A DNA stretch of 64,000 bases, from NCBI GenBank assembly GCA_001785445.1, contig MFTV01000010.1:19235-83234 (forward strand), in the 5' to 3' direction. The notes below the pieces were generated by a model. The model did not search any database, had not been told where the DNA came from, and saw nothing but the letters and a program-made list of their open reading frames with translations. Positions 3,184 to 53,061 of this stretch are shown piece by piece. Every line of letters starts with the position of its first letter. Positions within the stretch are counted from its first letter, which is position 1. Source of the stretch: Candidatus Nomurabacteria bacterium RIFCSPHIGHO2_02_40_30 (GTDB taxonomy: Bacteria > Patescibacteriota > Minisyncoccia > Phycocordibacterales > UBA9973). The position numbers and the translations under genes were made by a program.

Positions 3184-4872
3184 ATGCAAATGAACCAAGA
3201 AACAAAAAATTGTCAGAATTGTAAAAAAGACTTCACCATAGAGTCGGAGGATTTTAATTTTTACGAAAAGATAAAAGTTCCGCCACCGACAAGGTGTTTT
3301 GAGTGCCGACAACAGAGGCGCTATGCGTGGAGAAATGAACGGACACTATATAGGAGAAATTGTGATTTGTGTAAAAAAAGCACGGTGACGATTTATTCTC
3401 CAAACAAGCCGTACAAAGTTTACTGCAATGAATGCTGGTGGGGCGACGGCTGGGATGCTTCTTCCTATGGGCGAGATTTTGATTTTACTAGGCCATTCTT
3501 CGAGCAATTTGCAGAACTACAGCACGAAGTGCCCCGCATGGCGCTCCTCAATAAAAATAGTGTAAATTCCGACTATACCAACCATTCCGGTGACAACAAA
3601 AATATTTACCTTTCTTTTTCTACGTGGGGGTCTGAAGATGTGATGTATAGTACTTGGGTTTTTTATTCCCGTGACTGCATGGATTCTAGTTTTATTTATG
3701 AAAAAGGTGAACGATTATACGAAATTATTGATTCTCGCACATCCTATCAATGTCAATACGGGCTTTTCTTGAAAGACTGTTCATCTTGTTACTACTGCTA
3801 TGACTGCCGAGGGTGCAACAACTGCTTTATGTCCAGCAACTTGCGAAACAAAAGTTATGTCTTCAAAAATAAACAATATACGAGAGTTGAATATTTGAAA
3901 AAACTAAAGGAATACGATTTATCTTCTCACCTTGTTCGTGAAGGATTAAATAAAGAGTGGAAAGACATGATGCAAAAAGATGCAATTCATCGATATGTGA
4001 TAAGTGAGAGGAATGTGAATTCTACTGGGTCTTTAATTTTTGACTGCAAAAATGTGAAAGATTCTTTTGAAGTTAATAAAGGTGAAGATTCTAAATATCT
4101 GTATTCTACTATCGACCCCAAAAATTGTATGGATTTATATCATGTGGGGCTAAATCTAGAACTGTGTTATGAATTACAGGGTTGTACTCGCACATCCAAT
4201 TGCCAATTCTGCCATCTTTGTTATGACAACATGAACGCAGTGTACTGCGATACTTGCCAAAACAGCCAGAATCTATTCGGCTGTGTCTCAGTGAAAAAGG
4301 GCGAGTATATGATTTTTAATAAAAAGTACTCTAAAGAAGAATATTTGACACTAAAAGAAAAGATTATCGAACATATGAAAAAGACAGGCAGAGAGGAAGG
4401 TGAGTATGGAGAATTTTTCCCACCAAGTATCGCGCCTGTGTATTACAATGAAACACAGGGGAATTTATATATGCCTATGACTAAAGATGAAGTCTTAGCA
4501 AAAGGCTGGCATTGGGAGGACAATGTTCCGAGGACTTTCGGCAAGGAGACAATTAAGAGCGGAGCCATTCCAGACAAAATTGAAGATGTGTCGGACAGCT
4601 ATTTAAGTGAAATTTTTATTTGTATTGATTGTTCTAAAAATTACAATATAACCCAAAACGAGCTTCTTTTTTACCGCAAAGAAATTCTTCCACTCCCTAG
4701 GAAGTGTCCGAATTGTCGCTATAAAAGAAGATTTGATTTACGTCCACCGAGAAAGTTATGGCATAGACAGTGCATGAAAGAGGAGTGTCCAAATGAATTT
4801 GAAACTACTTATGCCCCCGAACGACCTGAAAAAGTGTATTGCGAAAGCTGCTACAACAAAGAAGTTTATTAG
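3184..4872 (+). CDS. Cysteine-rich multi-zinc-ribbon protein, paralog 2 of 5
   Basis: N-terminus QETKNCQNCKKDFTIESEDFNFYEKIKVPPPTRCFECRQQRR and the WWGDGWDASSYGRDFDFTRPFFEQF motif. C-terminus CPNEFETTYAPERPEKVYCESCY has C-x2-C-x17-C-x2-C spacing. Directly tandem to paralogs 1 and 3. Confidence 0.85.
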   Translation: MQMNQETKNCQNCKKDFTIESEDFNFYEKIKVPPPTRCFECRQQRRYAWRNERTLYRRNCDLCKKSTVTIYSPNKPYKVYCNECWWGDGWDASSYGRDFDFTRPFFEQFAELQHEVPRMALLNKNSVNSDYTNHSGDNKNIYLSFSTWGSEDVMYSTWVFYSRDCMDSSFIYEKGERLYEIIDSRTSYQCQYGLFLKDCSSCYYCYDCRGCNNCFMSSNLRNKSYVFKNKQYTRVEYLKKLKEYDLSSHLVREGLNKEWKDMMQKDAIHRYVISERNVNSTGSLIFDCKNVKDSFEVNKGEDSKYLYSTIDPKNCMDLYHVGLNLELCYELQGCTRTSNCQFCHLCYDNMNAVYCDTCQNSQNLFGCVSVKKGEYMIFNKKYSKEEYLTLKEKIIEHMKKTGREEGEYGEFFPPSIAPVYYNETQGNLYMPMTKDEVLAKGWHWEDNVPRTFGKETIKSGAIPDKIEDVSDSYLSEIFICIDCSKNYNITQNELLFYRKEILPLPRKCPNCRYKRRFDLRPPRKLWHRQCMKEECPNEFETTYAPERPEKVYCESCYNKEVY

Positions 4873-9240: not shown

Positions 9241-9456
9241 TTAGTACCAGCGACTGCTTGATTGATGCGCTCGGTTGGCGGCCTCAATGCGTGCCGCTAC
9301 TGTCGCCGAATCTTCGGCTATGGGAGCGCCTTTGGCTCGTTTGCGACTCACACAAGCCGCATTTCTGAGATCCAACAGTTTCTTTCCTGTTATCAACCCA
9401 GATTTGCGCGCACTTGCATACTTCTGTCCAGCGTTTGGGACTTGCGAATGTGCCAC
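9241..9456 (-). CDS. rpsU: 30S ribosomal protein S21 (GTG start)
   Basis: Basic 71-aa product: ...SARKSGLITGKKLLDLRNAACVSRKRAKGAPIA...ANRAHQSSSRWY. This resembles S21 (SCEKAGVL...ERKRAKASAV...RRTRLY). A GTG start is preceded by AAAGGAG with a 7-nt spacer. The locally GC-rich sequence produces overlapping spurious ORFs on the + strand. Confidence 0.5.
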   Translation of the reverse strand: MAHSQVPNAGQKYASARKSGLITGKKLLDLRNAACVSRKRAKGAPIAEDSATVAARIEAANRAHQSSSRWY

Positions 9457-9552
9457 TTTTAACTCCTTTCGTTCAAAAATTTAACACACACACACAGATA
9501 TATCAAGTATTTTTGATTTGTTGCAATTAAGTTTTTGTGATATCATATAGCT

Positions 9553-9771
9553 ATGAAGAAATTAAACTTACAAAATATAGTTTGGAAAGAGGGGAAATAC
9601 TATGTTTCTCAGTGTTTAAATGTAGATGTCTCTAGTTTTGGCAAGACAAAAAAAGAGGCGCTTAAAAATTTAAGTGAAGCTCTAGATTTGTATTTTGAAG
9701 AAAAAAGTATTCCAAAATTCCAAGAGGTTAAAAGCCCGGAAATATTCCCTATGGCTTTTAGGTATGCCTAA
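9553..9771 (+). CDS. hicB: HicB-like antitoxin (type II TA, UPF0150 fold)
   Basis: 72 aa; ...EGKYYVSQCLNVDVSSFGKTKKEALKNLSEALDLYFEE matches the HicB/UPF0150 pattern (..GGYxAxxPELPGCxxxGDTxEEAxxNxxEAIELYLE). Overlaps the next ORF by 8 nt. Confidence 0.55.
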   Translation: MKKLNLQNIVWKEGKYYVSQCLNVDVSSFGKTKKEALKNLSEALDLYFEEKSIPKFQEVKSPEIFPMAFRYA

Positions 9772-15683: not shown

Positions 15684-17451
15684 CGAAATAAAAAATTGCC
15701 AAAATTGCAAGAAAGATTTCACCGTTGAGCCGGAGGATTTTAATTTTTATGAAAAAATCAAAGTTCCTCCGCCAACTTTTTGCCCAGAATGCAGGCTGGT
15801 GCGGCGAATGCTGTGGCGTAATGAACGCTCGCTTTTCAAAAGGTCTTGCGCCAAAACGAGCAAACAAATAATCACCATGTTTCATCCGGATGCTAAGGTG
15901 GTGGTATATGACCATGACACATGGTGGAGTGACCAGTGGGAACCGACCGATTATGGAAAAGATTATGATTTTTCTAAACCGTTTTTTGAGCAATTCAAAG
16001 AATTACTTTACCGAACATCATTAGCGAATTTAGGAAATTCCAATAACGTTGGCAGTCCTTACGGCAATCACAATGCCGACTGCAAGTATTGCTATTTATT
16101 ATACGCTTCTTTCAACGTTGAACGAACACATTATTCTTATGGCGCGGTTAGATTGAAAGATTGCATGGATATGTATGTCTGTTTGCATTCCGAATTGTGT
16201 TATAACGATATTGTCAGCACTGATTTGTATAAAACTCATTTTTCTTATGACGCGGACGAGTCTGTTAATTGCTTTTTTCTGAAGTATTCTAAAAATATGC
16301 AAGACAGTATTGGCTGTATAAATTTGAGAAATAAAAGTCATTGCATTTTAAATGTAGAATATTCAAAAGAAGAGTACGAGAAAAGGAAAAAAGAGTTTGA
16401 TTTCGGCAGTTATAAAGTTTTGTTTGAATTTGAAAATTCTTTTAACAGACTTGTCCTTAATGTTCCGTACCGATATGCGCACATCATGAAATCTAAAGAT
16501 GTTACCGGAGACAATATTATAAACTCTAAAAATGTAAAGAATTGTTTTGATATTTATCAAAATGTGGAAGATTCAAAGTATTTAATTCATTGCTTGGACG
16601 CCAAGGACTGTTATGACTTATATGGCGGTGGCGCGGTGGCATCTTTAATGTACGAAGGAGTGGATATTGGAAAAGAATCGTCCAAGCAATTATTTTCCAT
16701 ACTCACTCATACTTGTTTCCAAACTTATTATACCTACATGTGCTATAACTCAAAAAATCTTTTTGGCTGTATCGGCTTGCGGGGGAAGCAGTACTGCATT
16801 TTGAATAAGCAGTATTCCAAAGAAAAATATTTTGAACTATTGCCGAAAATTATTGAGCATATGAATACCATGCCCTATAAAGATAAAAAAGGACTAATTT
16901 ATAAATATGGAGAATTTTTCCCAAGCGAATTATCGCCTTTTGCTTATAACGAGACAATTGCCCAAGAATATTTTACAAAAACTAAAGAAGAAATTGTTAA
17001 AGACGGATATACTTATAGAACTTCACCGGCAAAGGATTATCAAGCGACTATTTTGAACAAAGATTTACCAGATCATATCAAAGATGTTTCTGATTCTATT
17101 CTTAAAGAGGTGATTGCTTGTCCTAACGATGGCAAAGAACTGACTCAATGTACCAAAGCTTATCGTATTATTAAATCCGAGTTAGAATTTCTAAAAAATA
17201 ATAACATTGCTTTGCCGCGCTATTGCCCCAATTGCCGTCACTATAAAAGACTCAAGCAAAGAAATCCATTCAAACTCTGGCAGGCTAAATGTCAGTGCGC
17301 TGGGGCTAACTCTCAAAATAAAAAATACAAAAACACAATAAAACATACTCATGGAACCAAACCTTGTCCGAACGAATTTGAAACAAGCTATGCTCCTGAC
17401 CGACCGGAAATTATTTATTGTGAAAAATGTTACCAGCAGGAAGTTTATTGA
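15673..17451 (+). CDS. Cysteine-rich multi-zinc-ribbon protein, paralog 4 of 5
   Basis: MKNSEIKNCQNCKKDFTVEPEDFNFYEKIKVPPPTFCPECRLVRR..., the WWSDQWEPTDYGKDYDFSKPFFEQF motif, and C-terminus CPNEFETSYAPDRPEIIYCEKCYQQEVY. The ATG sits inside the ABC exporter stop region, which suggests translational coupling. Confidence 0.85.
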   Translation: MKNSEIKNCQNCKKDFTVEPEDFNFYEKIKVPPPTFCPECRLVRRMLWRNERSLFKRSCAKTSKQIITMFHPDAKVVVYDHDTWWSDQWEPTDYGKDYDFSKPFFEQFKELLYRTSLANLGNSNNVGSPYGNHNADCKYCYLLYASFNVERTHYSYGAVRLKDCMDMYVCLHSELCYNDIVSTDLYKTHFSYDADESVNCFFLKYSKNMQDSIGCINLRNKSHCILNVEYSKEEYEKRKKEFDFGSYKVLFEFENSFNRLVLNVPYRYAHIMKSKDVTGDNIINSKNVKNCFDIYQNVEDSKYLIHCLDAKDCYDLYGGGAVASLMYEGVDIGKESSKQLFSILTHTCFQTYYTYMCYNSKNLFGCIGLRGKQYCILNKQYSKEKYFELLPKIIEHMNTMPYKDKKGLIYKYGEFFPSELSPFAYNETIAQEYFTKTKEEIVKDGYTYRTSPAKDYQATILNKDLPDHIKDVSDSILKEVIACPNDGKELTQCTKAYRIIKSELEFLKNNNIALPRYCPNCRHYKRLKQRNPFKLWQAKCQCAGANSQNKKYKNTIKHTHGTKPCPNEFETSYAPDRPEIIYCEKCYQQEVY

Positions 17452-17454
17452 CCT

Positions 17455-17590
17455 CACCCCCAGCCTCTCTCAACCCTTCCAGACCTCCCCTTGTCAGGGG
17501 AGGCAAATGGTTTTCCCCTGATAAGGGGGATGCAAGATGGTTTAAGGAGAGGGTGGCCGAAGGTCGGGTGAGGTGAATTATGTTATAATA
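17455..17590 (+). other. GC-rich, multi-hairpin intergenic element between paralog 4 and the second TraD-like ATPase
   Basis: Outer stem acctcaccc / gggtgaggt. Inner hairpins cctcccc-ttgtca-ggggagg and tcccc-tgataa-ggggga. Very GC-rich compared with the flanking AT-rich coding sequence. Starts at the paralog 4 stop codon. Confidence 0.45.
17581..17589 (+). promoter_or_regulatory. Extended -10 promoter element (TGTTATAAT) upstream of the second TraD-like ATPase
   Basis: TGnTATAAT match 9 nt before ATG 17598. The same TTATGTTATAATA string recurs at 61898-61910 upstream of the gene at 61917. Confidence 0.4.
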
Positions 17591-17597
17591 CTTAATT

Positions 17598-19100
17598 ATG
17601 CCCAAGCCGAATCGAGTGCAGATAATAAAATATGGTCCGCCGCCGCCGGAGTTACCGGTCTTCGGAAAGGTTAAACCCGAAGACGTTTCTTTTATTGGGC
17701 GGACTAATTATGTGGCATCTCTCGAAGAAAAGAAATTTATTTTTGGCATTAAGCGCATAGACCGACGCAGGCATTTGTATATATTAGGGAAATCCGGTGT
17801 CGGCAAGAGCAAATTGCTCGAGCTTTTAATGCGCCAAGACATTACTTACAATCATGGACTTTGCCTGATTGATCCACATGGTGACGAACTTGAAGGAATA
17901 CTGGATTATATACCCAAAGAACGCATCGAAGATGTTTGCATTATTGACCCGACTGACGTTAATTTCCCGGCTTCTTTTAATCCGCTGGCGAACGTTGACC
18001 CGATGTTCAAGTTTCAGCTCACGCAAGGACTGATCGAAGTTTTTCAAAAACAATTCGGCGCCAACTGGACGCCTCGACTTGAGCACGTTTTCCGTTTCAC
18101 TTGTCTGGCGCTTTTGGATTATCCACATGCCACCATGCGTGGAATGATTTCCATGCTGACCGATAGAAATTACCGGCAGAAAGTGGTGGAGTATATTACG
18201 GATGACATGGTAAAAAGATTCTTCGCTATTGAATTCGCCGATTGGTCGGAAAAATTCGATACTGATGCGATTATTCCATTAGTTAACAAATTAGGGCAAT
18301 TTCTATCCGACCCCTTGCTTCGCAATATTTTCGGTCAAAAAGAAAATAAAATAGATATCAGCGAATTAATGAATCAGGAAAAAATAATTCTGATTAATAT
18401 TTCTAAAGGTCGGCTGGGAGAAGAAAATTCTTCTTTCCTCGGGTCAATCTTTCTCACTAAAATAAAACAAGCCGGTATGGAACGTGCCGCAATTCCGGAA
18501 AGAGAAAGAAAAGATTTCTATTTATATGTAGACGAGTTTCAAAATGTTGTTACCCAAACTTTTGAAAATATTTTATCGGAGGCCAGAAAATATGCCTTGA
18601 ATTTAACTATCGCGCACCAATATGTCGGACAGATTATTCCCAGAGTCCACCAAGCAGTGCTTGGTAATTGTGGTAGCGTGATTACTTTTCGCGTCGGCGG
18701 TGAAGACGCAGTCAAAATGAAACCTGAGTTTGCTCCGCTCTTTGATGTTAAGGACATGATCAATCTTGCCGTGACAGAGTTTTATATAAAAATGACTATT
18801 GACGGCGAATCTTACGACCCATTCTCGGCAGAAACCTTGAAAGTTTTGTCGCCAACTCATCCTTCATATAGAGAAGAAATAGTAGCCGCTTCTCACCGAA
18901 AATATTCGATACCGAAAGATGCCGCAGCCAAACTCATTGCCGAAGAAGAAGCCACTATCATTCGAAGTTCTGAGGAAAAAGCTATTATTGAAAGTAAAGC
19001 TAAGAGAAAAGAAAAAGAAAAAGGATTGGCAAGTGAAGAGGGAACAGCAGACACAAGTTCAAAAAAGAAAACTTCCCAAGAAGCTGAACCTATGATATAA
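17598..19100 (+). CDS. TraD/TraG/VirD4-family P-loop ATPase, paralog 2 (no zinc finger)
   Basis: YILGKSGVGKSKLLELL...DPHGDE, FYLYVDEFQNVV, and ARKYALNLTIAHQYVGQI...GNCGSVITFRVGGED. Colinear with the 11905 protein but lacks its CxxC tail. Confidence 0.75.
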   Translation: MPKPNRVQIIKYGPPPPELPVFGKVKPEDVSFIGRTNYVASLEEKKFIFGIKRIDRRRHLYILGKSGVGKSKLLELLMRQDITYNHGLCLIDPHGDELEGILDYIPKERIEDVCIIDPTDVNFPASFNPLANVDPMFKFQLTQGLIEVFQKQFGANWTPRLEHVFRFTCLALLDYPHATMRGMISMLTDRNYRQKVVEYITDDMVKRFFAIEFADWSEKFDTDAIIPLVNKLGQFLSDPLLRNIFGQKENKIDISELMNQEKIILINISKGRLGEENSSFLGSIFLTKIKQAGMERAAIPERERKDFYLYVDEFQNVVTQTFENILSEARKYALNLTIAHQYVGQIIPRVHQAVLGNCGSVITFRVGGEDAVKMKPEFAPLFDVKDMINLAVTEFYIKMTIDGESYDPFSAETLKVLSPTHPSYREEIVAASHRKYSIPKDAAAKLIAEEEATIIRSSEEKAIIESKAKRKEKEKGLASEEGTADTSSKKKTSQEAEPMI

Positions 19101-39741: not shown

Positions 39742-40800
39742 ATGTATCTAGATTTAGTTAAAATTTTTGTACCGACTACATTTGCCTTTTTTCTGGGTAT
39801 TTTTATTACGCCTTTGGCTACCCATTTTTTCTACAAATATAAAATGTGGAAGAAAAAAGCAAGGAGTGAAGATATAACATCCGCTGATTTCAAATTAATC
39901 CATCAACAGAAAGAAGAAACTGAAATTTCAACCCCATGCGTGGGCGGTATTGTCATCTGGGTTTCTGCACTCTTCACTGTTTTTGTATTTTTTCTGTTGT
40001 CAGTTATTTTTCCGAATGATTTGTTTTCAAAATTAAATTTTTTCAGTCGTTCGCAAACTTTTATCCCTGTGGGCATATTTATATTGGGAGCCATATTGGG
40101 ACTGGTGGACGACGTTTTGGAAATTAGAGGCAAAGTGGATATAACCAGAAATTCAGCTTGGTATACCAGAATAAAATTATTTATCATAACAATACTGGGC
40201 TTACTCGCAGGCTTTTGGTTCTTTTTCAAACTAGATATGCATTCTGTTCATATTCCTTTTAACGGCAATGTGGAGCTTGGAATTTTATTTATACTGTTTG
40301 TCGTTATTGTGATGCTCTCTACTTTCTCCGGCGGAGTAATAGACGGGCTAGACGGACTCTCCGGCGGAGTTTTGGCATCTATTTTTGGAGCTTACTCTGT
40401 TATCGCTTTCGTCAATAATCAAATAGATTTGGCGACTTTCTCCGGAGTAGTGACAGGCGCAATTTTGGCATTTCTTTGGTTCAATATTCCTCCGGCGCGT
40501 TTCTATATGGGGGAGACCGGCATGATGCCACTTACTATTACTCTCGCCACTATAGCGTTTTTGACGGATACAGTTTTGATTTTACCGATAATAGCCTTTC
40601 CGCTGGTTATTACTTCAGCTTCTTCCAGCCTGCAGCTTCTTGCCAAAAAGTTTTTTGGCAAGAAAGTTTTTCGAGTGGCGCCACTGCATCACCACTTTGA
40701 AGCTATTGGCTGGCCGTCTTACAAAGTTACTATGCGTTTTTGGGTTCTGGCGGTCGTGTCTGCTATTATTGGAATAATTTTAGCGGTCATTAGCAGATAG
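39742..40800 (+). CDS. mraY: Phospho-N-acetylmuramoyl-pentapeptide transferase
   Basis: 10-TM protein with the MraY signature VIDGLDGLSGG and conserved HHHFE near the C-terminus. Confidence 0.85.
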   Translation: MYLDLVKIFVPTTFAFFLGIFITPLATHFFYKYKMWKKKARSEDITSADFKLIHQQKEETEISTPCVGGIVIWVSALFTVFVFFLLSVIFPNDLFSKLNFFSRSQTFIPVGIFILGAILGLVDDVLEIRGKVDITRNSAWYTRIKLFIITILGLLAGFWFFFKLDMHSVHIPFNGNVELGILFILFVVIVMLSTFSGGVIDGLDGLSGGVLASIFGAYSVIAFVNNQIDLATFSGVVTGAILAFLWFNIPPARFYMGETGMMPLTITLATIAFLTDTVLILPIIAFPLVITSASSSLQLLAKKFFGKKVFRVAPLHHHFEAIGWPSYKVTMRFWVLAVVSAIIGIILAVISR

Positions 40801-40838
40801 AGCTTTAGACTCTTAGATAGAGTCTAAAGCTCTATCTG
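40794..40838. repeat. 45-nt perfect palindrome (copy A) at the mraY/ftsW junction
   Basis: cagatagagctttagactct-tagat-agagtctaaagctctatctg has 20-bp arms and a 5-nt loop. It overlaps the mraY stop. A second copy lies at 50029-50075. Confidence 0.7.
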
Positions 40839-40845
40839 CAAAAGT

Positions 40846-41943
40846 ATGAAAACAAAGAAAGTAGACAAATTTTTTCTCGGTATCGTACTTATCTTGATTT
40901 TTTTCGGGCTGGCTATTTTTGTTTCCGCATCTTTGGGCATCTTGGCAAAAAATGAAAAGATTTTTTATTCCGTGCTTTTCAGCCAGCTTGTCTTAGGGCT
41001 TGGGATGGGGTTCGTCGGCATGTACCTTTGTTTTAAAATTGACTACAAGTTTTGGCGTAAATACGCCTTTTATATTTTTTTAGCTTCGACACTGCTCACC
41101 GCGGCTGTTTTTATTCCCGAGCTAGGGTGGAGCCACGGCGGAGCTCAAAGGTGGATACAGTTTGGAGGATTTTCTTTTCAACCGGTAGAAATTTTAAAGT
41201 TTGGTTTTGTGATTTATTTTGCTGCCTGGCTGTCCTGGGCAAAAAACAAAGTGCAGGATTTCAAATTCGGCATATTGCCATTTTTTATAATGATTTCTAT
41301 AATAGCTCTGATTTTAATAAATCAACCCGACACCAAAAGCTTCATTTTAATAGCCACAACAGGCATATCAATGCTTTTTATTTCTGGTGTGTCGATGAAA
41401 AAGATTTTTGGAGCAGGAATTTGTATAGTGTTAGTTTTGATGGCGCTATTGTTATATAAACCTTATTTGCAAGAAAGATTTAAAACTTTTTTAGACCCCT
41501 CGAGTGATCCTAGAGGTTCTTCCTACCAAATCCAACAGTCGTTAATTGCCTTGGGCTCTGGGGGCGCCATAGGCCGTGGATTTGGCCAAAGCGTTCAAAA
41601 ATTTAGCTACTTACCTGAACCGCAGGGAGACTCCATCTTTGCTGTTTTAGGTGAAGAATTAGGTTTTGTGGGAGCAGGCGCAACCATATTTCTTTATCTG
41701 CTTTTTGCTCTGCGCGGATTTCGCATCGCAAATCGCGCACCGGACCCTTTTGGTGGACTTTTAGTCTCGGGGATTGTTATACTGATTACGGTGCAGTCAT
41801 TTATGCACATTGCTTCCATTACCGGAGTCTTCCCGCTTACCGGCGTGCCGCTTCCTTTTATGAGCCATGGCGGCACATCCCTCATGATCTATATGGCAGC
41901 TATGGGTATTGTATTAAACATATCAAAATTTAACAAAAATTAA
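40846..41943 (+). CDS. ftsW: SEDS-family peptidoglycan glycosyltransferase FtsW/RodA
   Basis: 10 TM helices. Conserved SEDS loop ...SDPRGSSYQIQQSLIALGSGGAIGRGFGQS...LPEPQGDSIFAVLGEELGFVG. Confidence 0.85.
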   Translation: MKTKKVDKFFLGIVLILIFFGLAIFVSASLGILAKNEKIFYSVLFSQLVLGLGMGFVGMYLCFKIDYKFWRKYAFYIFLASTLLTAAVFIPELGWSHGGAQRWIQFGGFSFQPVEILKFGFVIYFAAWLSWAKNKVQDFKFGILPFFIMISIIALILINQPDTKSFILIATTGISMLFISGVSMKKIFGAGICIVLVLMALLLYKPYLQERFKTFLDPSSDPRGSSYQIQQSLIALGSGGAIGRGFGQSVQKFSYLPEPQGDSIFAVLGEELGFVGAGATIFLYLLFALRGFRIANRAPDPFGGLLVSGIVILITVQSFMHIASITGVFPLTGVPLPFMSHGGTSLMIYMAAMGIVLNISKFNKN

Positions 41944-45867: not shown

Positions 45868-45944
45868 ATAAAAAATAAAAATACCCCGAAGACCGAAAGG
45901 TAATCGAGGTTCTTTTGGTTTCATTTTTTCTAAAGAACTTACCC

Positions 45945-46380
45945 AGACGAGGGTGACGTGAGATCTGTCCGCTCCTTGCTTAAGATCCAATCACGTCACC
46001 CTTTGCGCTTGGTCAGTGCGTACTGCGTTAGATACCACTGACCTCATTCGGTGTGCGACTTCGAGAGGCACACCGAATGGAACTTTACTCGTCGCCTTGT
46101 AACGACCGAGGCAGGGCAAATGGGTCGCCCTCCTCTGCTACTTCTTCCGTCGTCTTGGCGAGTGGTTCAGGCTTTGTTGCCCGAGTTAAGAAAACAAAAA
46201 TTTGGGCTATCATTGCTAGCGCTAGGCCGGCAAATTCAAGCCACATCAACCTTTCCCATGTCATACGTATCCTCCTATCCATGTTTATACCACAAAGTTA
46301 GAAATAAACAAGGAAAACTAAAGGAGCCTGCCCCAACCGAGTTTCGTTCTGGTTCGGGGTTATCCACAGCTTAGGCTTGG
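45945..46380. other. GC-rich, highly structured region of about 430 nt (candidate structured RNA gene, or foreign DNA carrying a small ORF)
   Basis: Consecutive perfect hairpins: gggtgacgtga/tcacgtcaccc (11 bp), ggtcagtg/cactgacc (8 bp), cattcggtgtgc/gcacaccgaatg (12 bp). Local GC is far above background. No conserved tmRNA or RNase P motif was recognised. A minus-strand 59-65-aa ORF (46085-46282) with an AGGAGG Shine-Dalgarno sequence and one TM helix also lies here. Confidence 0.4.
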
Positions 46381-50082: not shown

Positions 50083-51399
50083 ATGAAAACAATTTTGAAA
50101 AAAATAATAACTTACATTTTGCGGCTAGAGTCGGTTTTGGTACTTTTCAAATATAAACCAAAAATCATTGCTATTACCGGCTCGGTCGGCAAGACTTCCA
50201 CCAAAGATGCGGTGTATGCGGTCTTATCGGGAATTACATATGTTCGTAAAAGTGAAAAAAGCTACAACAGCGAAATAGGTTTGCCCCTTACTATCTTAGG
50301 TGTTCCAAATGGGTGGAATAATCCATTAATCTGGCTCAAAAATATATTTGCTGGTTTATGGCTTTTTATATATCCTCACAAATACCCCAAAATGCTTGTG
50401 CTGGAAGTAGGCGTCGGCAAAGAGGGGGATATGAAGAAAACCGCATCATGGCTTAAAACCGATGTAGTCATTATTACGGCCGTAGGTGAGACTCCGGTGC
50501 ATATTGAATTTTTTAATTCACGCAAAAACTTGATAGAGGAAAAAAGTCAACTCATAAAAACTTTAAAAAAGGACGGTCTTCTTGTATTGAATGCTGATGA
50601 CGAAGATGTGCTGCAAATGGGAACAAACAGCAAGCACCTTGTTAAAACTTATGGATTTAAAGAAGGTGCTAATATTTTGGGTTCCAGCGATAGTATTTTT
50701 TACGATGAACATGGAGTACCCAAGGGAGTAATTTTCAGAGTTGATGAAGAGGGCAGGAGTCTGCCCGTAACCATAGAAGGAGTTTTTGGAAGGAATCACG
50801 TTTATGCAACTTTGGGTGCTCTTGCTCTCTCTTCTGGTTTAAAATTTAATATGCTTGATGCTGTAAATGCGCTCAAAAATTACGATATTCCGCCCGGACG
50901 AATGCGGCTTTTAGAAGGCATCAATGATTCTCTTATAATTGACGATAGCTACAATTCTTCTCCGTTTGCTTGCGAGTCGGCGCTCCGAACCTTAGGCGAA
51001 GTAAAAAATTTGGGAAGAAAAATAGCTGTCTTGGGAGACATGCTGGAACTTGGCAAGCACACGCAGGAAGCTCATAAGAATATTGGTCGTATTGCCAAAG
51101 AATACACAGATGTTCTTATTGTTGTAGGTCCTAGAGCTCAAGATATAAAAGACGGAGCGTTAGAGGTTTACCCGTCTTCCGGCGGGCGAGGGATTAATCC
51201 TGCTAACATTTTTGAATTTTTAGATTCGTATCATGCAGCAGAATTTATAAAAACTTTTGTGCAAAAAGGAGACCTAGTACTAGTGAAAGGTTCCCAAGGT
51301 ATGCGCATGGAGCGGATAGTGGAAGCTATACTTTTAGACCAAATAAATAAAGAAAAACTACTCGTCCGCCAAGACAAAGAGTGGCTGGAGAAAAAGTAG
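50083..51399 (+). CDS. murF: UDP-MurNAc-pentapeptide synthetase MurF (Mur ligase)
   Basis: Mur ligase P-loop ITGSVGKTSTKD and the central/C-terminal Mur ligase domains. Its position after ftsI, with murE absent, favours MurF, but MurE cannot be excluded by eye. Confidence 0.7.
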   Translation: MKTILKKIITYILRLESVLVLFKYKPKIIAITGSVGKTSTKDAVYAVLSGITYVRKSEKSYNSEIGLPLTILGVPNGWNNPLIWLKNIFAGLWLFIYPHKYPKMLVLEVGVGKEGDMKKTASWLKTDVVIITAVGETPVHIEFFNSRKNLIEEKSQLIKTLKKDGLLVLNADDEDVLQMGTNSKHLVKTYGFKEGANILGSSDSIFYDEHGVPKGVIFRVDEEGRSLPVTIEGVFGRNHVYATLGALALSSGLKFNMLDAVNALKNYDIPPGRMRLLEGINDSLIIDDSYNSSPFACESALRTLGEVKNLGRKIAVLGDMLELGKHTQEAHKNIGRIAKEYTDVLIVVGPRAQDIKDGALEVYPSSGGRGINPANIFEFLDSYHAAEFIKTFVQKGDLVLVKGSQGMRMERIVEAILLDQINKEKLLVRQDKEWLEKK

Positions 51400-51402
51400 A
51401 AA

Positions 51403-51651
51403 TTATATTTCTCCGAAAATCTTGGCAACTAAGTTCTCGGTCTTTTTTATTAATTTAAACAAGTGAGGGTATTTGGCTGTGTGTTTTTCTAGCCATAAGC
51501 GAATTTTCGGGGAAGAGAAAGACAAAAGAACCAAGCCAATAAATAGAAAAATAATCCCCTGCAGAAAAGGCAGTGCCAGACCCAGCAGTCCGAATATTAT
51601 AAAAATAATTCCAAGAGTTAAAACTACTGCCCTTTTGATTTTCTTTTGCAT
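51403..51651 (-). CDS. DUF454/YbaN-like small inner-membrane protein
   Basis: GLLGLALPFLQGIIFLFIGLVLLSFSSPKIRLWLEKH matches the YbaN pattern (G.LG..LP.LP..PF.LL...F...S.R...WL). Confidence 0.5.
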   Translation of the reverse strand: MQKKIKRAVVLTLGIIFIIFGLLGLALPFLQGIIFLFIGLVLLSFSSPKIRLWLEKHTAKYPHLFKLIKKTENLVAKIFGEI

Positions 51652-51734
51652 GATGCTAATTATAGCAGAAATTTTTTGAAGGTACTGATTTTGTTGACAA
51701 ATTTTATATGTATGTAAATATGGTATTACTCACG

Positions 51735-51900
51735 GGCTGGGATAGTTAGGCAGAACCTCATAACCCTGTCTAAACTATGTGTCCCCGCGCCTTCACACGT
51801 GGTGTGAAGCCCAGTCTCGTGAGCGCTCTCATAATATTAAGAGCATCCCAGAAGGCTAGCGTCGAGAACTTTCTCCGCTAGTCTTTTATATTTTTATTTT
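51735..51900 (+). ncRNA. Candidate small structured RNA (about 150 nt) with its own promoter and intrinsic terminator; identity unknown
   Basis: Consensus -35 TTGACA at 51694-51699. GC-rich hairpins follow: cttcacac/gtgtgaag, and cacgggctggg paired with cccag..tcgtg. Terminal hairpin ggctagcg/cgctagtc (51854-51883) is followed by TTTTATATTTTTATTTT. No ORF with an RBS lies inside. Confidence 0.45.
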
Positions 51901-51943
51901 ACAATTTATTATTTTTTACAAAAGTGTTGTATTATTGAAAGAT

Positions 51944-52015
51944 GGCCCTATCGTCTAATAGTTAGGACAAGAGCTTCTCAAGCTTTAAATCTGGGTGCGA
52001 TCCCCAGTAGGGTCA
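51944..52015 (+). tRNA. tRNA-Glu (anticodon CTC)
   Basis: 72 nt. Acceptor stem GGCCCTA/TAGGGTC (one G-U pair). D-arm GTCT..AGGAC. Anticodon stem AGAGC/GCTTT with loop TTCTCAA (CTC at 34-36). T-arm CTGGG-TGCGATC-CCCAG. Discriminator A. No encoded CCA. Confidence 0.8.
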
Positions 52016-52020
52016 CAAAT

Positions 52021-53061
52021 TTATTCTTCAATTTTTGGCTTTTCGACTTCGAGAAGTGCGAGGTCAGGGGAGGAGCCGGCGATGCGGAGAACATCTTTGT
52101 CTATCTTTTTGAGTTCTTTGTTTGAAGCATTGTAATGGTTTACTACTGTGCCGAGGGCGTTGCCGAGTTTGTTGTGGTATTCATCGTAAGATTTTAAATG
52201 TTTTCCTAAGTCTTCCACCTTTTTAATTATTTCCTTGGCGGACTCTTCTATTTGAAGCGCTTTCAAGCCTTGGAGCACTGTCTGCAAATATGCGAGGAAG
52301 GAAGTAGGGGATGTAATTATGACTTTATACTTTCCGGCAGCACGCTGGATTAAATTTTCATTGTCGTCTCCTGCTCCAACTTTATTTGTAATTAAATCAT
52401 AATATATAGCTTCATGGGGGATGAACATAAAAGCGAAATCAGTGGTGCCTTTCGTGGGCTGGATGTATTTAGCAGTCTCGGTAATTCTATTTTTCAAATC
52501 ATTTACGAAAATTGTTTCCAATCTTTTTTTCTCCGTGGCGTCACGCTCCTCAACCATTTTATTATAATTCTCCAATGAGAATTTTGAATCTATTGGAATT
52601 ATTTTATCTTTTACGAATACTACAGCATCCACGATGGTTTTATCAGGGAATTCATATTGCATTTGGTAGCTTCCGGGAGGGAGAACATTTTTTAAAACTG
52701 TTTCCAAATAGTACTCTCCCAGTATTCCGCGCTGTTTAGGATTTTTTAAAATATTCTCCAAGCTCTGCAACTGGTCGGCGAAAGATATGACTTGCTTGTT
52801 CGTCTCGTCCAGCCTAGTGAGTCGCTCTGTAACATCGCGTATTATTTTATTCGATTCACTCGAATGAAACTTTAAGTTTTCACTAACCTGCTTATGGCTC
52901 TCTGCCATTTTATTATCTACGGTTCGCGAGAGTTCATTGATTTGGGTAAGTATAAGGTTGAGCCCAATATCATCTTTCTTTTCTTCCTTATCTTTATTCA
53001 AAAAAAGGTAAACAATAATACCTCCTACAATTATTCCCAAAACTATCCAAAGAATTTGCAT
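52021..53061 (-). CDS. rmuC: DNA recombination protein RmuC-family
   Basis: N-terminal TM helix, coiled coil, then the RmuC core (...QRGILGEYYLETVLKNVLPPG...FAFMFIPHEAIYYD...). Confidence 0.7.
   Translation of the reverse strand: MQILWIVLGIIVGGIIVYLFLNKDKEEKKDDIGLNLILTQINELSRTVDNKMAESHKQVSENLKFHSSESNKIIRDVTERLTRLDETNKQVISFADQLQSLENILKNPKQRGILGEYYLETVLKNVLPPGSYQMQYEFPDKTIVDAVVFVKDKIIPIDSKFSLENYNKMVEERDATEKKRLETIFVNDLKNRITETAKYIQPTKGTTDFAFMFIPHEAIYYDLITNKVGAGDDNENLIQRAAGKYKVIITSPTSFLAYLQTVLQGLKALQIEESAKEIIKKVEDLGKHLKSYDEYHNKLGNALGTVVNHYNASNKELKKIDKDVLRIAGSSPDLALLEVEKPKIEE

What the first reader, a model, noticed from the sequence alone, without database searches (positions are those of the whole stretch)
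51694..51900. Independent small-RNA gene candidate upstream of tRNA-Glu
- A consensus -35 hexamer TTGACA (51694-51699) is followed by A/T-rich -10 candidates.
- A GC-rich, roughly 150-nt structured segment (51735-51853) follows, with an 8-bp hairpin CTTCACAC/GTGTGAAG and an end-closing helix CACGGGCUGGG/CCCAG-UCUCGUG.
- A clean intrinsic terminator follows: GGCTAGCG...CGCTAGTC plus T-run (51854-51900).
- There is no ORF with a ribosome-binding site inside.
- The size and promoter/terminator architecture fit 6S RNA, SRP RNA or a novel sRNA. I could not match the SRP helix-8 motif (GGAAGCAGC) by eye.
Basis: seen in the sequence. Interest (0 to 1): 0.5.

Follow-up and report, generated by a model that had tools for sequence, protein, structure and literature searches.

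The report
Orphan small RNA gene in Nomurabacteria
Next to a tRNA-Glu gene in a tiny groundwater bacterium (Candidatus Nomurabacteria) lies a self-contained, strongly folded ~160-nt non-coding RNA gene with its own promoter and terminator; it matches no known RNA family, was found only in a very narrow group of strains, and its function is unknown.

Summary
The sequence features are real. A TTGACA -35 and an extended -10 sit 51694-51721. A GC-rich four-helix core spans 51729-51823, followed by a small hairpin and an intrinsic terminator (51850-51887 plus U run). The + strand folds far better than shuffles (z -7.1) and better than the - strand. All six frames carry stops.

It is not SRP RNA, 6S RNA, tmRNA, a tRNA or any other Rfam family: there was no credible hit even at E<=10. 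It is not a tRNA-Glu leader. In a sister lineage (L103/L106) the same RNA unit is convergent with the tRNA.

The unit is absent from the syntenic locus of 80 related species. I found it only in the window's species and one or two sister lineages, in three different gene arrangements. The rearrangement breakpoints fall just outside the predicted promoter and terminator.

Against sister lineage B, flanking genes differ by 6-13% and the tRNA by 10%. The RNA promoter and body (160 nt) show no substitution and one loop indel. That means either strong constraint or recent recombinational spread. No covariation is available.

Best reading: an independently transcribed, clade-restricted orphan sRNA. 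Its mechanism is unknown; base-pairing through C-rich loops is only a guess. Interest is modest.

The parts
51694..51699 (+). -35 hexamer TTGACA of the RNA promoter
   Evidence: Read. It is the only TTGAC[AT] with an extended -10 at the right spacing in the window. It is identical in lineage B and in L109, where homology to the window starts about 4-6 nt upstream of it.
51713..51721 (+). Extended -10, TGTAAATAT (TG, one base, then AAATAT; 16-nt spacer from the -35)
   Evidence: It resembles the genome's usual TG[CT]TATA[AT]T promoters. The hexamer keeps A at position 2 and T at position 6 but matches only 3 of 6, so promoter function is inferred.
51728..51728 (+). Predicted transcription start (+/- 1-2 nt)
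   Evidence: Inference: 7 nt after the -10, the same spacing as between extended -10 motifs and ATG at four leaderless-looking genes. It coincides with the first paired base of P1.
51729..51741 (+). P1, 5' strand (CUCACGGGCUGGG) of the closing helix
   Evidence: MFE and centroid agree; pair probabilities 0.89-0.99.
51742..51778 (+). P2 hairpin: 12 bp with one bulged A, and the 12-nt loop AACCUCAUAACC (51754-51765)
   Evidence: The only change in the core among strains is loss of one A in this loop (L107, L108, L111, L112).
51779..51790 (+). P3, a weak 4-bp hairpin GUGU-CCCC-GCGC (it may instead be a single-stranded C-rich junction strand)
   Evidence: Pair probability 0.70-0.77.
51791..51809 (+). 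P4 hairpin CUUCACAC-GUG-GUGUGAAG
   Evidence: Pair probability 0.97-0.99.
51810..51823 (+). P1, 3' strand (CCCAGUCUCGUGAG, one bulged U)
51825..51844 (+). 3' hairpin GCUCU-CAUAAUAUUA-AGAGC, followed by unpaired AUCCC (51845-51849)
   Evidence: Pair probability 0.94-0.99; identical in lineage B.
51850..51900 (+). Intrinsic terminator: stem AGAAGGCUAGCG / CGCUAGUCUUUU with an inner GAGA/UCUC stem, then a U-rich tail
   Evidence: -18.8 kcal/mol. In lineage B, G51855 (paired with U51882) is A, turning G.U into A-U, and the tail differs at 51888-89 but stays U-rich.

Best explanation
It is a discrete, independently transcribed small non-coding RNA gene of about 160 nt on the + strand, restricted to a narrow clade of Candidatus Nomurabacteria.

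Transcription would start about 51728 from a sigma-70-type promoter (TTGACA, 16-nt spacer, extended -10) and stop at the intrinsic terminator near 51890. The RNA folds into a compact four-helix junction (P1-P4, 51729-51823), a short 3' hairpin and the terminator hairpin.

Shown from sequence:
- The anatomy and the strand-specific, well-defined fold.
- The absence of coding potential.
- Independence from tRNA-Glu.
- Retention of the whole unit through three different local rearrangements.
- Near-identity of the unit where the flanks have diverged.

Inferred:
- That it is transcribed.
- What it does.

My preferred mechanism, at perhaps 25% overall, is a trans-acting regulatory RNA. It would pair through its unpaired C-rich segments (ACCUCAU in the P2 loop, UCCCC in P3, AUCCC before the terminator) with G-rich ribosome-binding or start regions of mRNAs, without Hfq, as C-rich-loop sRNAs of Firmicutes do. 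A protein-binding or scaffold role for the compact junction is about as likely.
For: - Promoter: the TTGACA plus extended -10 combination is unique in the window.
- Fold: z -7.1 on the + strand against -3.5 on the - strand, an 11 kcal/mol difference. G.U pairs favour the + strand, and helix probabilities are 0.77-1.0.
- Terminator: hairpin of -18.8 kcal/mol followed by a U run.
- Coding: stops in all six frames and no protein-level similarity.
- The tRNA-Glu upstream region from about 51905 is conserved with relatives, so the tRNA has its own promoter.
- The unit is kept in three arrangements: window (RNA then tRNA-Glu, same strand), lineage B L103/L106-L108/L112 (RNA convergent with tRNA-Glu, glyA inserted), and L109 (a 362-aa gene inserted between orf82 and the RNA promoter). 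Breakpoints lie at about 51688 and about 51890-51894, just outside the promoter and terminator.
- Conservation against lineage B: 0 substitutions and 1 loop indel in 160 nt of promoter, core and 3' hairpin. Compare 9-11% in orf82, 12.6% in the murF 3' end (L112), 6.5% in rmuC and 7 of 73 nt in tRNA-Glu. Fisher p is 5e-7 to 2e-3.
- The only two changes inside the RNA body are structure-neutral: a loop deletion and G.U to A-U in the terminator stem. The two other differences, at 51888-89, lie in the U-rich tail, which stays U-rich.
Against: - There is no transcript evidence.
- There is no covariation: effectively one independent comparison, with no substitution in any core helix.
- Complete identity, even in the promoter spacer, next to a tRNA that differs by 10% fits a recent recombination or horizontal-transfer tract as well as it fits selection. 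These strains are mosaic: the murF 3' end is 0.3% diverged in L106 but 12.6% in L112.
- The unit is absent from the syntenic locus of 80 related species and of the closest relative, which has a 159-nt gap fully used by terminator, promoter and tRNA.
- One metagenome pattern scan found only one true carrier.
- The -10 hexamer is weak.
- No target complementarity above chance was found within the 64-kb window.
- A compact junction closed by a 13-bp helix is not typical of base-pairing sRNAs.
Confidence: 0.5

Rival explanations
1. It is passenger or selfish DNA. A structured, GC-rich segment was recently acquired at the tRNA-Glu rearrangement hot spot and spread between closely related strains by recombination. 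It may be transcribed but has no cellular function; it could be a remnant of a mobile element or of a larger foreign insert.
For: - The tRNA-Glu flank carries different inserts in almost every one of 80 related species: small ORFs, a PKD-repeat gene, GIY-YIG ORFs, glyA.
- The unit has a very narrow distribution.
- It shows 100% identity, including presumably neutral promoter-spacer positions, while the adjacent tRNA differs by 10%.
- The strains are mosaic.
- Its GC content is 56% against 39% for the window.
Against: - It is a single copy in the window and in about 1 Mb of related loci, with no terminal-repeat or target-duplication signature and no transposase, integrase or endonuclease nearby.
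- The island of identity is only about 170 nt and coincides with a promoter-to-terminator unit, which is short for a homologous-recombination tract.
- The fold is strand-asymmetric, as expected for RNA rather than a DNA palindrome.
Confidence: 0.25
2. It is a cis-acting transcription punctuation module. The hairpins act as a terminator or insulator, partly bidirectional, between convergent or divergent neighbours (tRNA-Glu, rmuC, orf82) rather than producing a functional RNA.
For: - In the ancestral-type arrangement (L103/L106) the tRNA-Glu 3' end abuts the terminator hairpin from the other side.
- The terminator stem is flanked by an A-tract and a U-tract.
- Relatives carry simple terminator hairpins at this place.
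Against: - A terminator needs about 40 nt, not a 95-nt four-helix junction with its own promoter.
- On the - strand the hairpin is followed only by UUCU.
- The core is better conserved than the terminator itself: 0 of 96 against 3 of 41 differences.
Confidence: 0.08
3. It is a tRNA-derived or tRNA-like RNA: a degenerate duplicate of tRNA-Glu that evolved into a new cloverleaf-shaped RNA.
For: - It has a four-way junction topology.
- The 9-mer AUAGUUAGG equals the tRNA-Glu D-loop and lies at the same offset from the 5' end. CCCAGU is shared at the junction of the T-stem-equivalent helix and the closing helix.
- Local alignment gives p about 0.056 and global alignment p about 0.037 against shuffles.
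- Partial tRNA-Glu duplicates exist at this hot spot in other species.
Against: - The alignment statistics are marginal and were looked for after the fact.
- ARAGORN and the Rfam tRNA model find nothing here.
- Arm lengths (13, 12, 4 and 8 bp) and loops are not tRNA-like, and there is no T-loop or anticodon-loop signature.
Confidence: 0.05
4. It is a divergent housekeeping RNA (6S RNA or SRP RNA), or a leader or attenuator of tRNA-Glu.
For: It lies next to a tRNA.
Against: - No Rfam match at E<=10 to SRP, 6S, tmRNA or any leader family.
- The fold is a cruciform with no GNRA-capped helix-8-like hairpin.
- It is absent at the locus in 80 related species.
- It is convergent with tRNA-Glu in L103/L106, and a terminator plus a separate conserved tRNA promoter lie between the two genes in the window.
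Confidence: 0.03

Closest known systems
Orphan, Hfq-independent sRNAs of low-GC Gram-positive bacteria with C-rich unpaired motifs (e.g. RsaE/RoxS and other Rsa RNAs; PMC2790875 appeared in the listing but I did not read it, so the comparison rests on my own knowledge)
   Same: A stand-alone gene in an intergenic region, with a sigma-70-type promoter, an intrinsic terminator, a length of 100-200 nt, stable hairpins, and C-rich segments (CCUC, UCCCC, AUCCC) in predicted unpaired positions.
   Different: No sequence or covariance-model similarity. The core is a closed four-way junction rather than a string of hairpins. No targets were found. The distribution is limited to a few strains, whereas RsaE is conserved across Bacillales.
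6S RNA (Rfam RF00013)
   Same: Similar size class; an independent gene with a promoter and terminator.
   Different: No model match. No rod-like fold with a central bubble. The 5' and 3' ends do not pair with each other.
Bacterial small SRP RNA / 4.5S (Rfam RF00169)
   Same: The core is about 100 nt, is GC-rich relative to the genome and has a closing helix.
   Different: No model match. No helix-8 motif or GNRA tetraloop. Branched rather than a single hairpin. Not present at the locus in related species.
tRNA / tRNA-like cloverleaf RNAs
   Same: Four helices around one junction, a 9-nt identity to the tRNA-Glu D-loop at the same offset, and a location beside a tRNA gene.
   Different: Not recognised by ARAGORN or the Rfam tRNA model. 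No linker nucleotides in the junction. Arm and loop sizes are unlike tRNA.

Membership tests
Bacterial small SRP RNA (RF00169) | Match to the family covariance model (helix 8 with GNRA tetraloop and the conserved symmetric and asymmetric loops) | tested here: not met
   cmscan at gathering threshold on the whole window, and at E<=10 on 451 nt and 174 nt, gave no SRP hit. No GGAA-capped hairpin appears in the fold.
6S RNA (RF00013) | Match to the family model; a rod-shaped fold of about 180 nt with a large central bubble and paired 5' and 3' ends | tested here: not met
   No hit. The MFE and centroid folds are a four-way junction plus two 3' hairpins, with pair probabilities 0.77-1.0.
6S RNA (RF00013) | Binding to the RNA polymerase holoenzyme and synthesis of product RNA | not testable with these tools
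   This needs biochemistry.
tRNA / tmRNA | Cloverleaf with canonical arm lengths and conserved D- and T-loop nucleotides, recognised by ARAGORN or Rfam RF00005 / RF00023 | tested here: not met
   ARAGORN and Rfam find only tRNA-Glu at 51944-52016.
Independent intrinsic-terminator-bounded sRNA gene (generic class) | Own promoter upstream, and a Rho-independent terminator downstream on the same strand | tested here: met
   TTGACA, 16-nt spacer, extended -10. Terminator hairpin of -18.8 kcal/mol followed by a U run. This is sequence-level evidence only.
Independent intrinsic-terminator-bounded sRNA gene (generic class) | A discrete transcript detected | not testable with these tools
   No expression data are available.
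Independent intrinsic-terminator-bounded sRNA gene (generic class) | Conserved structure supported by compensatory substitutions | tested here: inconclusive
   The only variants found are a 1-nt loop deletion and a G.U to A-U change in the terminator. No helix substitutions were seen.
Cis-regulatory leader / riboswitch / tRNA leader | Constant position upstream of, and on the same strand as, the regulated gene | tested here: not met
   In L103/L106-L108/L112 the next gene, tRNA-Glu, is convergent. In the window a terminator and a separate tRNA promoter intervene.
Repeat element (MITE / REP-like) | Multiple copies per genome with terminal inverted repeats | tested here: not met
   Single copy in the 64-kb window, with and without filters, and none in about 1 Mb of related loci. 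The test is limited because the rest of the genome was not available.
C-rich-loop base-pairing sRNAs (RsaE/RoxS type) | Family model match, and complementarity of C-rich loops to Shine-Dalgarno regions of target mRNAs | tested here: inconclusive
   No Rfam match. C-rich unpaired motifs are present. No complementarity above chance was found in the window, but only about 63 genes could be tested.

The most novel reading that the evidence does not exclude
The element is the first sighted member of an undescribed class of compact four-way-junction RNAs in CPR/Patescibacteria. It would be a protein-binding, tRNA-mimicking or catalytic RNA carried on a small promoter-to-terminator cassette that moves between strains at the tRNA-Glu hot spot. 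More divergent relatives elsewhere in Patescibacteria genomes could have escaped my exact-pattern and synteny-limited searches.
Probability: 0.1. Interest if true: 0.6.

Novelty: new member of a known kind. Interest (0 to 1): 0.27.

Why it matters
To my knowledge, almost nothing is known about regulatory or structural small RNAs in CPR/Patescibacteria, whose reduced genomes are thought to carry few regulators. A well-delimited, strongly folded RNA gene that stays invariant while its neighbours are shuffled would be a concrete candidate to test in groundwater metatranscriptomes. Its distribution is very narrow and there is no covariation or expression evidence. For now it is an ordinary orphan-sRNA candidate, not a new principle.

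Tried and rejected
- Rfam at gathering threshold on the whole window and at E<=10 on 451 nt and 174 nt: only tRNA-Glu, plus noise hits on AT-rich flanks and the terminator.
- nhmmer, blastn (word size 7) and the covariance model R1, with default filters and with filters off, against 80 GTDB Nomurabacteria rmuC loci and extra loci (about 1 Mb): nothing but self.
- Closest strains (P0001, P0002, P0004 contigs): 100% identical over whole loci, so uninformative.
- Two viral-contig pattern scans, and phage and plasmid blastn searches: nothing.
- Metagenome pattern scan (loop L2 plus P3): six chance hits and one true carrier, L103.
- Six-frame translation and tblastn: no coding signal.
- Target search by duplex energy and loop complements in the window: not better than shuffles.
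- Homology to tRNA-Glu: marginal, p about 0.04-0.06.
- Attempt to extend the L109 arrangement through its 362-aa gene: only two short contigs that end inside or before the RNA. The C51751A difference at the L109 contig end therefore cannot be checked for a compensating change.
- Group I intron idea, prompted by PMC13011429: rejected because of size and the lack of an Rfam intron hit.

Full report
**Context.** The window comes from a Candidatus Nomurabacteria genome (CPR/Patescibacteria). Its RmuC protein is identical to entries from GW2011/RIFCSP Nomurabacteria bins, and 80 related loci all come from Nomurabacteria/Paceibacteria MAGs. The local gene order is murF (50083-51399 +), a DUF454/PGPGW membrane protein of 82 aa here called orf82 (51403-51651 -), the candidate RNA (+), tRNA-Glu(CUC) (51944-52016 +) and rmuC (52021-53061 -).

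**Checking the observation.**
- The + strand of 51725-51895 folds at -69 kcal/mol, against -40.5 +/- 4 for dinucleotide shuffles (z -7.1, 0 of 200 as good).
- The 95-nt core alone gives z -5.4, with 0 of 500 shuffles as good.
- The fold is well defined, with mean pair probabilities of 0.77-1.0 per helix.
- It consists of a closing helix P1 (51729-51741 / 51810-51823), a long hairpin P2 (51742-51778, loop AACCUCAUAACC), a weak P3 (51779-51790), P4 (51791-51809), a 3' hairpin (51825-51844) and a terminator hairpin (51850-51887, -18.8 kcal/mol) followed by a U-rich tail.
- The reverse strand folds 11 kcal/mol worse (z -3.5), as expected if G.U pairs matter. This argues for an RNA on the + strand rather than a DNA palindrome.
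- All six frames are interrupted by stops, and translated searches against about 1 Mb of related DNA found nothing.
- TTGACA alone is at chance frequency (22 copies in the window). The combination of TTGAC[AT] with a correctly spaced extended -10 (TGTAAATAT, 51713-51721) occurs only here.
- The organism's usual promoters look like TG[CT]TATA[AT]T, often 6-8 nt before an ATG. That spacing puts the predicted start at about 51728, exactly at the foot of P1.
- Caveats: the -10 hexamer is weak, the generic scanner did not list this promoter or terminator, and the window holds several other strongly folded intergenic spots.

**Known families.** Rfam found only the tRNA in the whole window at gathering threshold. 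At E<=10 on 451 nt and on 174 nt it gave only noise on AT-rich flanks and the terminator. There is no hint of SRP RNA, 6S RNA, tmRNA, a riboswitch, a ribozyme or an intron. ARAGORN finds no tRNA or tmRNA in the element. The cruciform fold is incompatible with the rod of 6S RNA or the hairpin of 4.5S RNA.

**Distribution.**
- In 80 species-level relatives, the ancestral order is rmuC, terminator, TGCTATATT promoter, tRNA-Glu, orf82, all on one strand.
- The closest relative outside the clade (94% RmuC identity, L082) has a 159-nt rmuC-orf82 gap. That gap is fully occupied by a terminator, the promoter and the tRNA.
- nhmmer, sensitive blastn and a covariance model of the core (R1), with and without filters, found no homologue in about 1 Mb of these loci or elsewhere in the window.
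- The tRNA-Glu flank is a rearrangement hot spot that carries different inserts in different species.
- Contigs of the window's own species are 100% identical and uninformative.
- One metagenome scan with a loop-based pattern returned six chance hits and one true carrier, L103. Looking up variants of orf82 then gave further carriers: L106-L108, L111, L112 and the truncated L109.

**What the carriers show.**
- In lineage B (L103/L106-L108, L112) the order is orf82(-), RNA(+), tRNA-Glu(-), glyA(-), rmuC(-). The RNA gene is convergent with the tRNA, which keeps the ancestral orientation. In the window, the 129-nt promoter-plus-tRNA segment (51891-52019) is inverted and glyA is absent.
- In L109 a 362-aa gene with no Pfam match lies between orf82 and the RNA promoter. 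Homology to the window resumes about 4-6 nt upstream of the -35 hexamer.
- The unit therefore persists in three arrangements whose breakpoints (about 51688 and about 51890-51894) bracket the predicted promoter-to-terminator unit. This rules out a tRNA-Glu leader or attenuator and supports a discrete unit.
- The tRNA-Glu upstream region from about 51905 is conserved with many relatives, so the tRNA has its own promoter.

**Conservation.** The table compares the window with lineage B.

| Segment | Difference from the window |
|---|---|
| orf82 | 9-11% |
| murF 3' end in L112 | 12.6% |
| rmuC | about 6.5% |
| tRNA-Glu | 7 of 73 nt, including a compensatory acceptor pair |
| RNA terminator | 3 of 41 nt |
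| RNA promoter, core and 3' hairpin (160 nt) | no substitution; one deleted A in the P2 loop in a subset |

- Fisher p values for the RNA against the flanks range from 5e-7 to 2e-3, depending on the flank used.
- The terminator change G51855A converts a G.U pair into A-U.
- This is what purifying selection would give. However, it is effectively one evolutionary comparison, there is no helix covariation, and the strains are mosaic: the murF 3' end is 0.3% diverged in L106 but 12.6% in L112.
- Complete identity even in the promoter spacer, beside a 10%-diverged tRNA, is equally well explained by a recent recombination or transfer of the cassette.

**Mechanism.**
- I commit to an independently transcribed, clade-restricted small RNA (confidence about 0.5).
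- As mechanism, a trans-acting base-pairing regulator using its unpaired C-rich segments is my first choice, at about 25% overall. It is unsupported by target searches limited to the roughly 63 genes of the window.
- A protein-binding role for the compact junction is about as likely.
- Rivals: passenger or selfish DNA at the hot spot (0.25), a transcription punctuation module (0.08), a tRNA-derived RNA (0.05; the 9-mer AUAGUUAGG is shared with the tRNA-Glu D-loop at the same offset, p about 0.04-0.06), and a divergent 6S RNA, SRP RNA or tRNA leader (0.03).

**Verdict.** It is a new member of a known kind, an orphan bacterial sRNA candidate in a phylum where, to my knowledge, none has been characterised. 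Interest is modest because the distribution is narrow and expression and covariation evidence are lacking.

Noticed in passing
window 45880-46380: A GC-rich stretch of about 450 nt with no ORF lies upstream of mraZ. It holds several long near-perfect hairpins (z about -4.6 on both strands) and has no Rfam hit even at E<=1. It may be a second orphan structured RNA or a decayed gene.
   Followed up: partly
window 17447-17578 (+): A 130-nt GC-rich long imperfect hairpin (MFE -71.8 kcal/mol, z -4.2) lies between two genes. It is the most stable 100-nt fold in the window and is immediately followed by a TGTTATAAT promoter at 17581 and an ATG at 17598.
   Followed up: partly
window 10676, 17581, 61901 (+) and 51667-51659 (-): The extended -10 motif TG[CT]TATAAT is followed by an ATG 6-8 nt later at four genes, including orf82. 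This suggests that leaderless mRNAs driven by extended -10 promoters without a -35 element are common in this organism.
   Followed up: partly
window 40792-40838: A perfect 21-bp palindrome (GCAGAUAGAGCUUUAGACUCU / AGAGUCUAAAGCUCUAUCUGC) lies between genes 39742-40800 and 40846-41943. It is the top GC-corrected structure in the window and is probably a terminator.
   Followed up: no
window 51891-52019 compared with L103 786-906: The tRNA-Glu gene with its promoter is inverted in the window relative to lineage B and to most of the 80 related species. The two tRNA-Glu copies differ at 7 of 73 nt, including a compensatory acceptor-stem pair, which suggests replacement of the cassette from a more distant lineage.
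   Followed up: partly
L011 about 9370-9690, L053, L067 (upstream of tRNA-Glu): A 5' fragment of tRNA-Glu (GGCCCTATCGTC...CTAACGGTTAGGAC) is interrupted by a 39-nt hairpin and followed by a GIY-YIG-like ORF, directly upstream of the intact tRNA-Glu. It looks like a homing-endonuclease-associated insertion or duplication at this tRNA (compare PMC13011429 on introns in Patescibacteria tRNAs).
   Followed up: no
L085 and L088 about 4100-4155; L037 upstream of tRNA-Glu: A two-hairpin leader of about 55 nt (GGCCTTAATCATCTG...CAGATAATCGGCCGAACATTTAAATTTAAATGT) lies between the promoter and the mature tRNA-Glu 5' end in some species. Its 5' end resembles the tRNA acceptor sequence.
   Followed up: no
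L103 1047-2288; L109 118-1206: There are strain-specific insertions beside the RNA unit. One is a GC-rich glyA (SHMT) gene between rmuC and tRNA-Glu in lineage B. The other is a 362-aa gene with no Pfam match between orf82 and the RNA promoter in L109, L110 and L113.
   Followed up: partly
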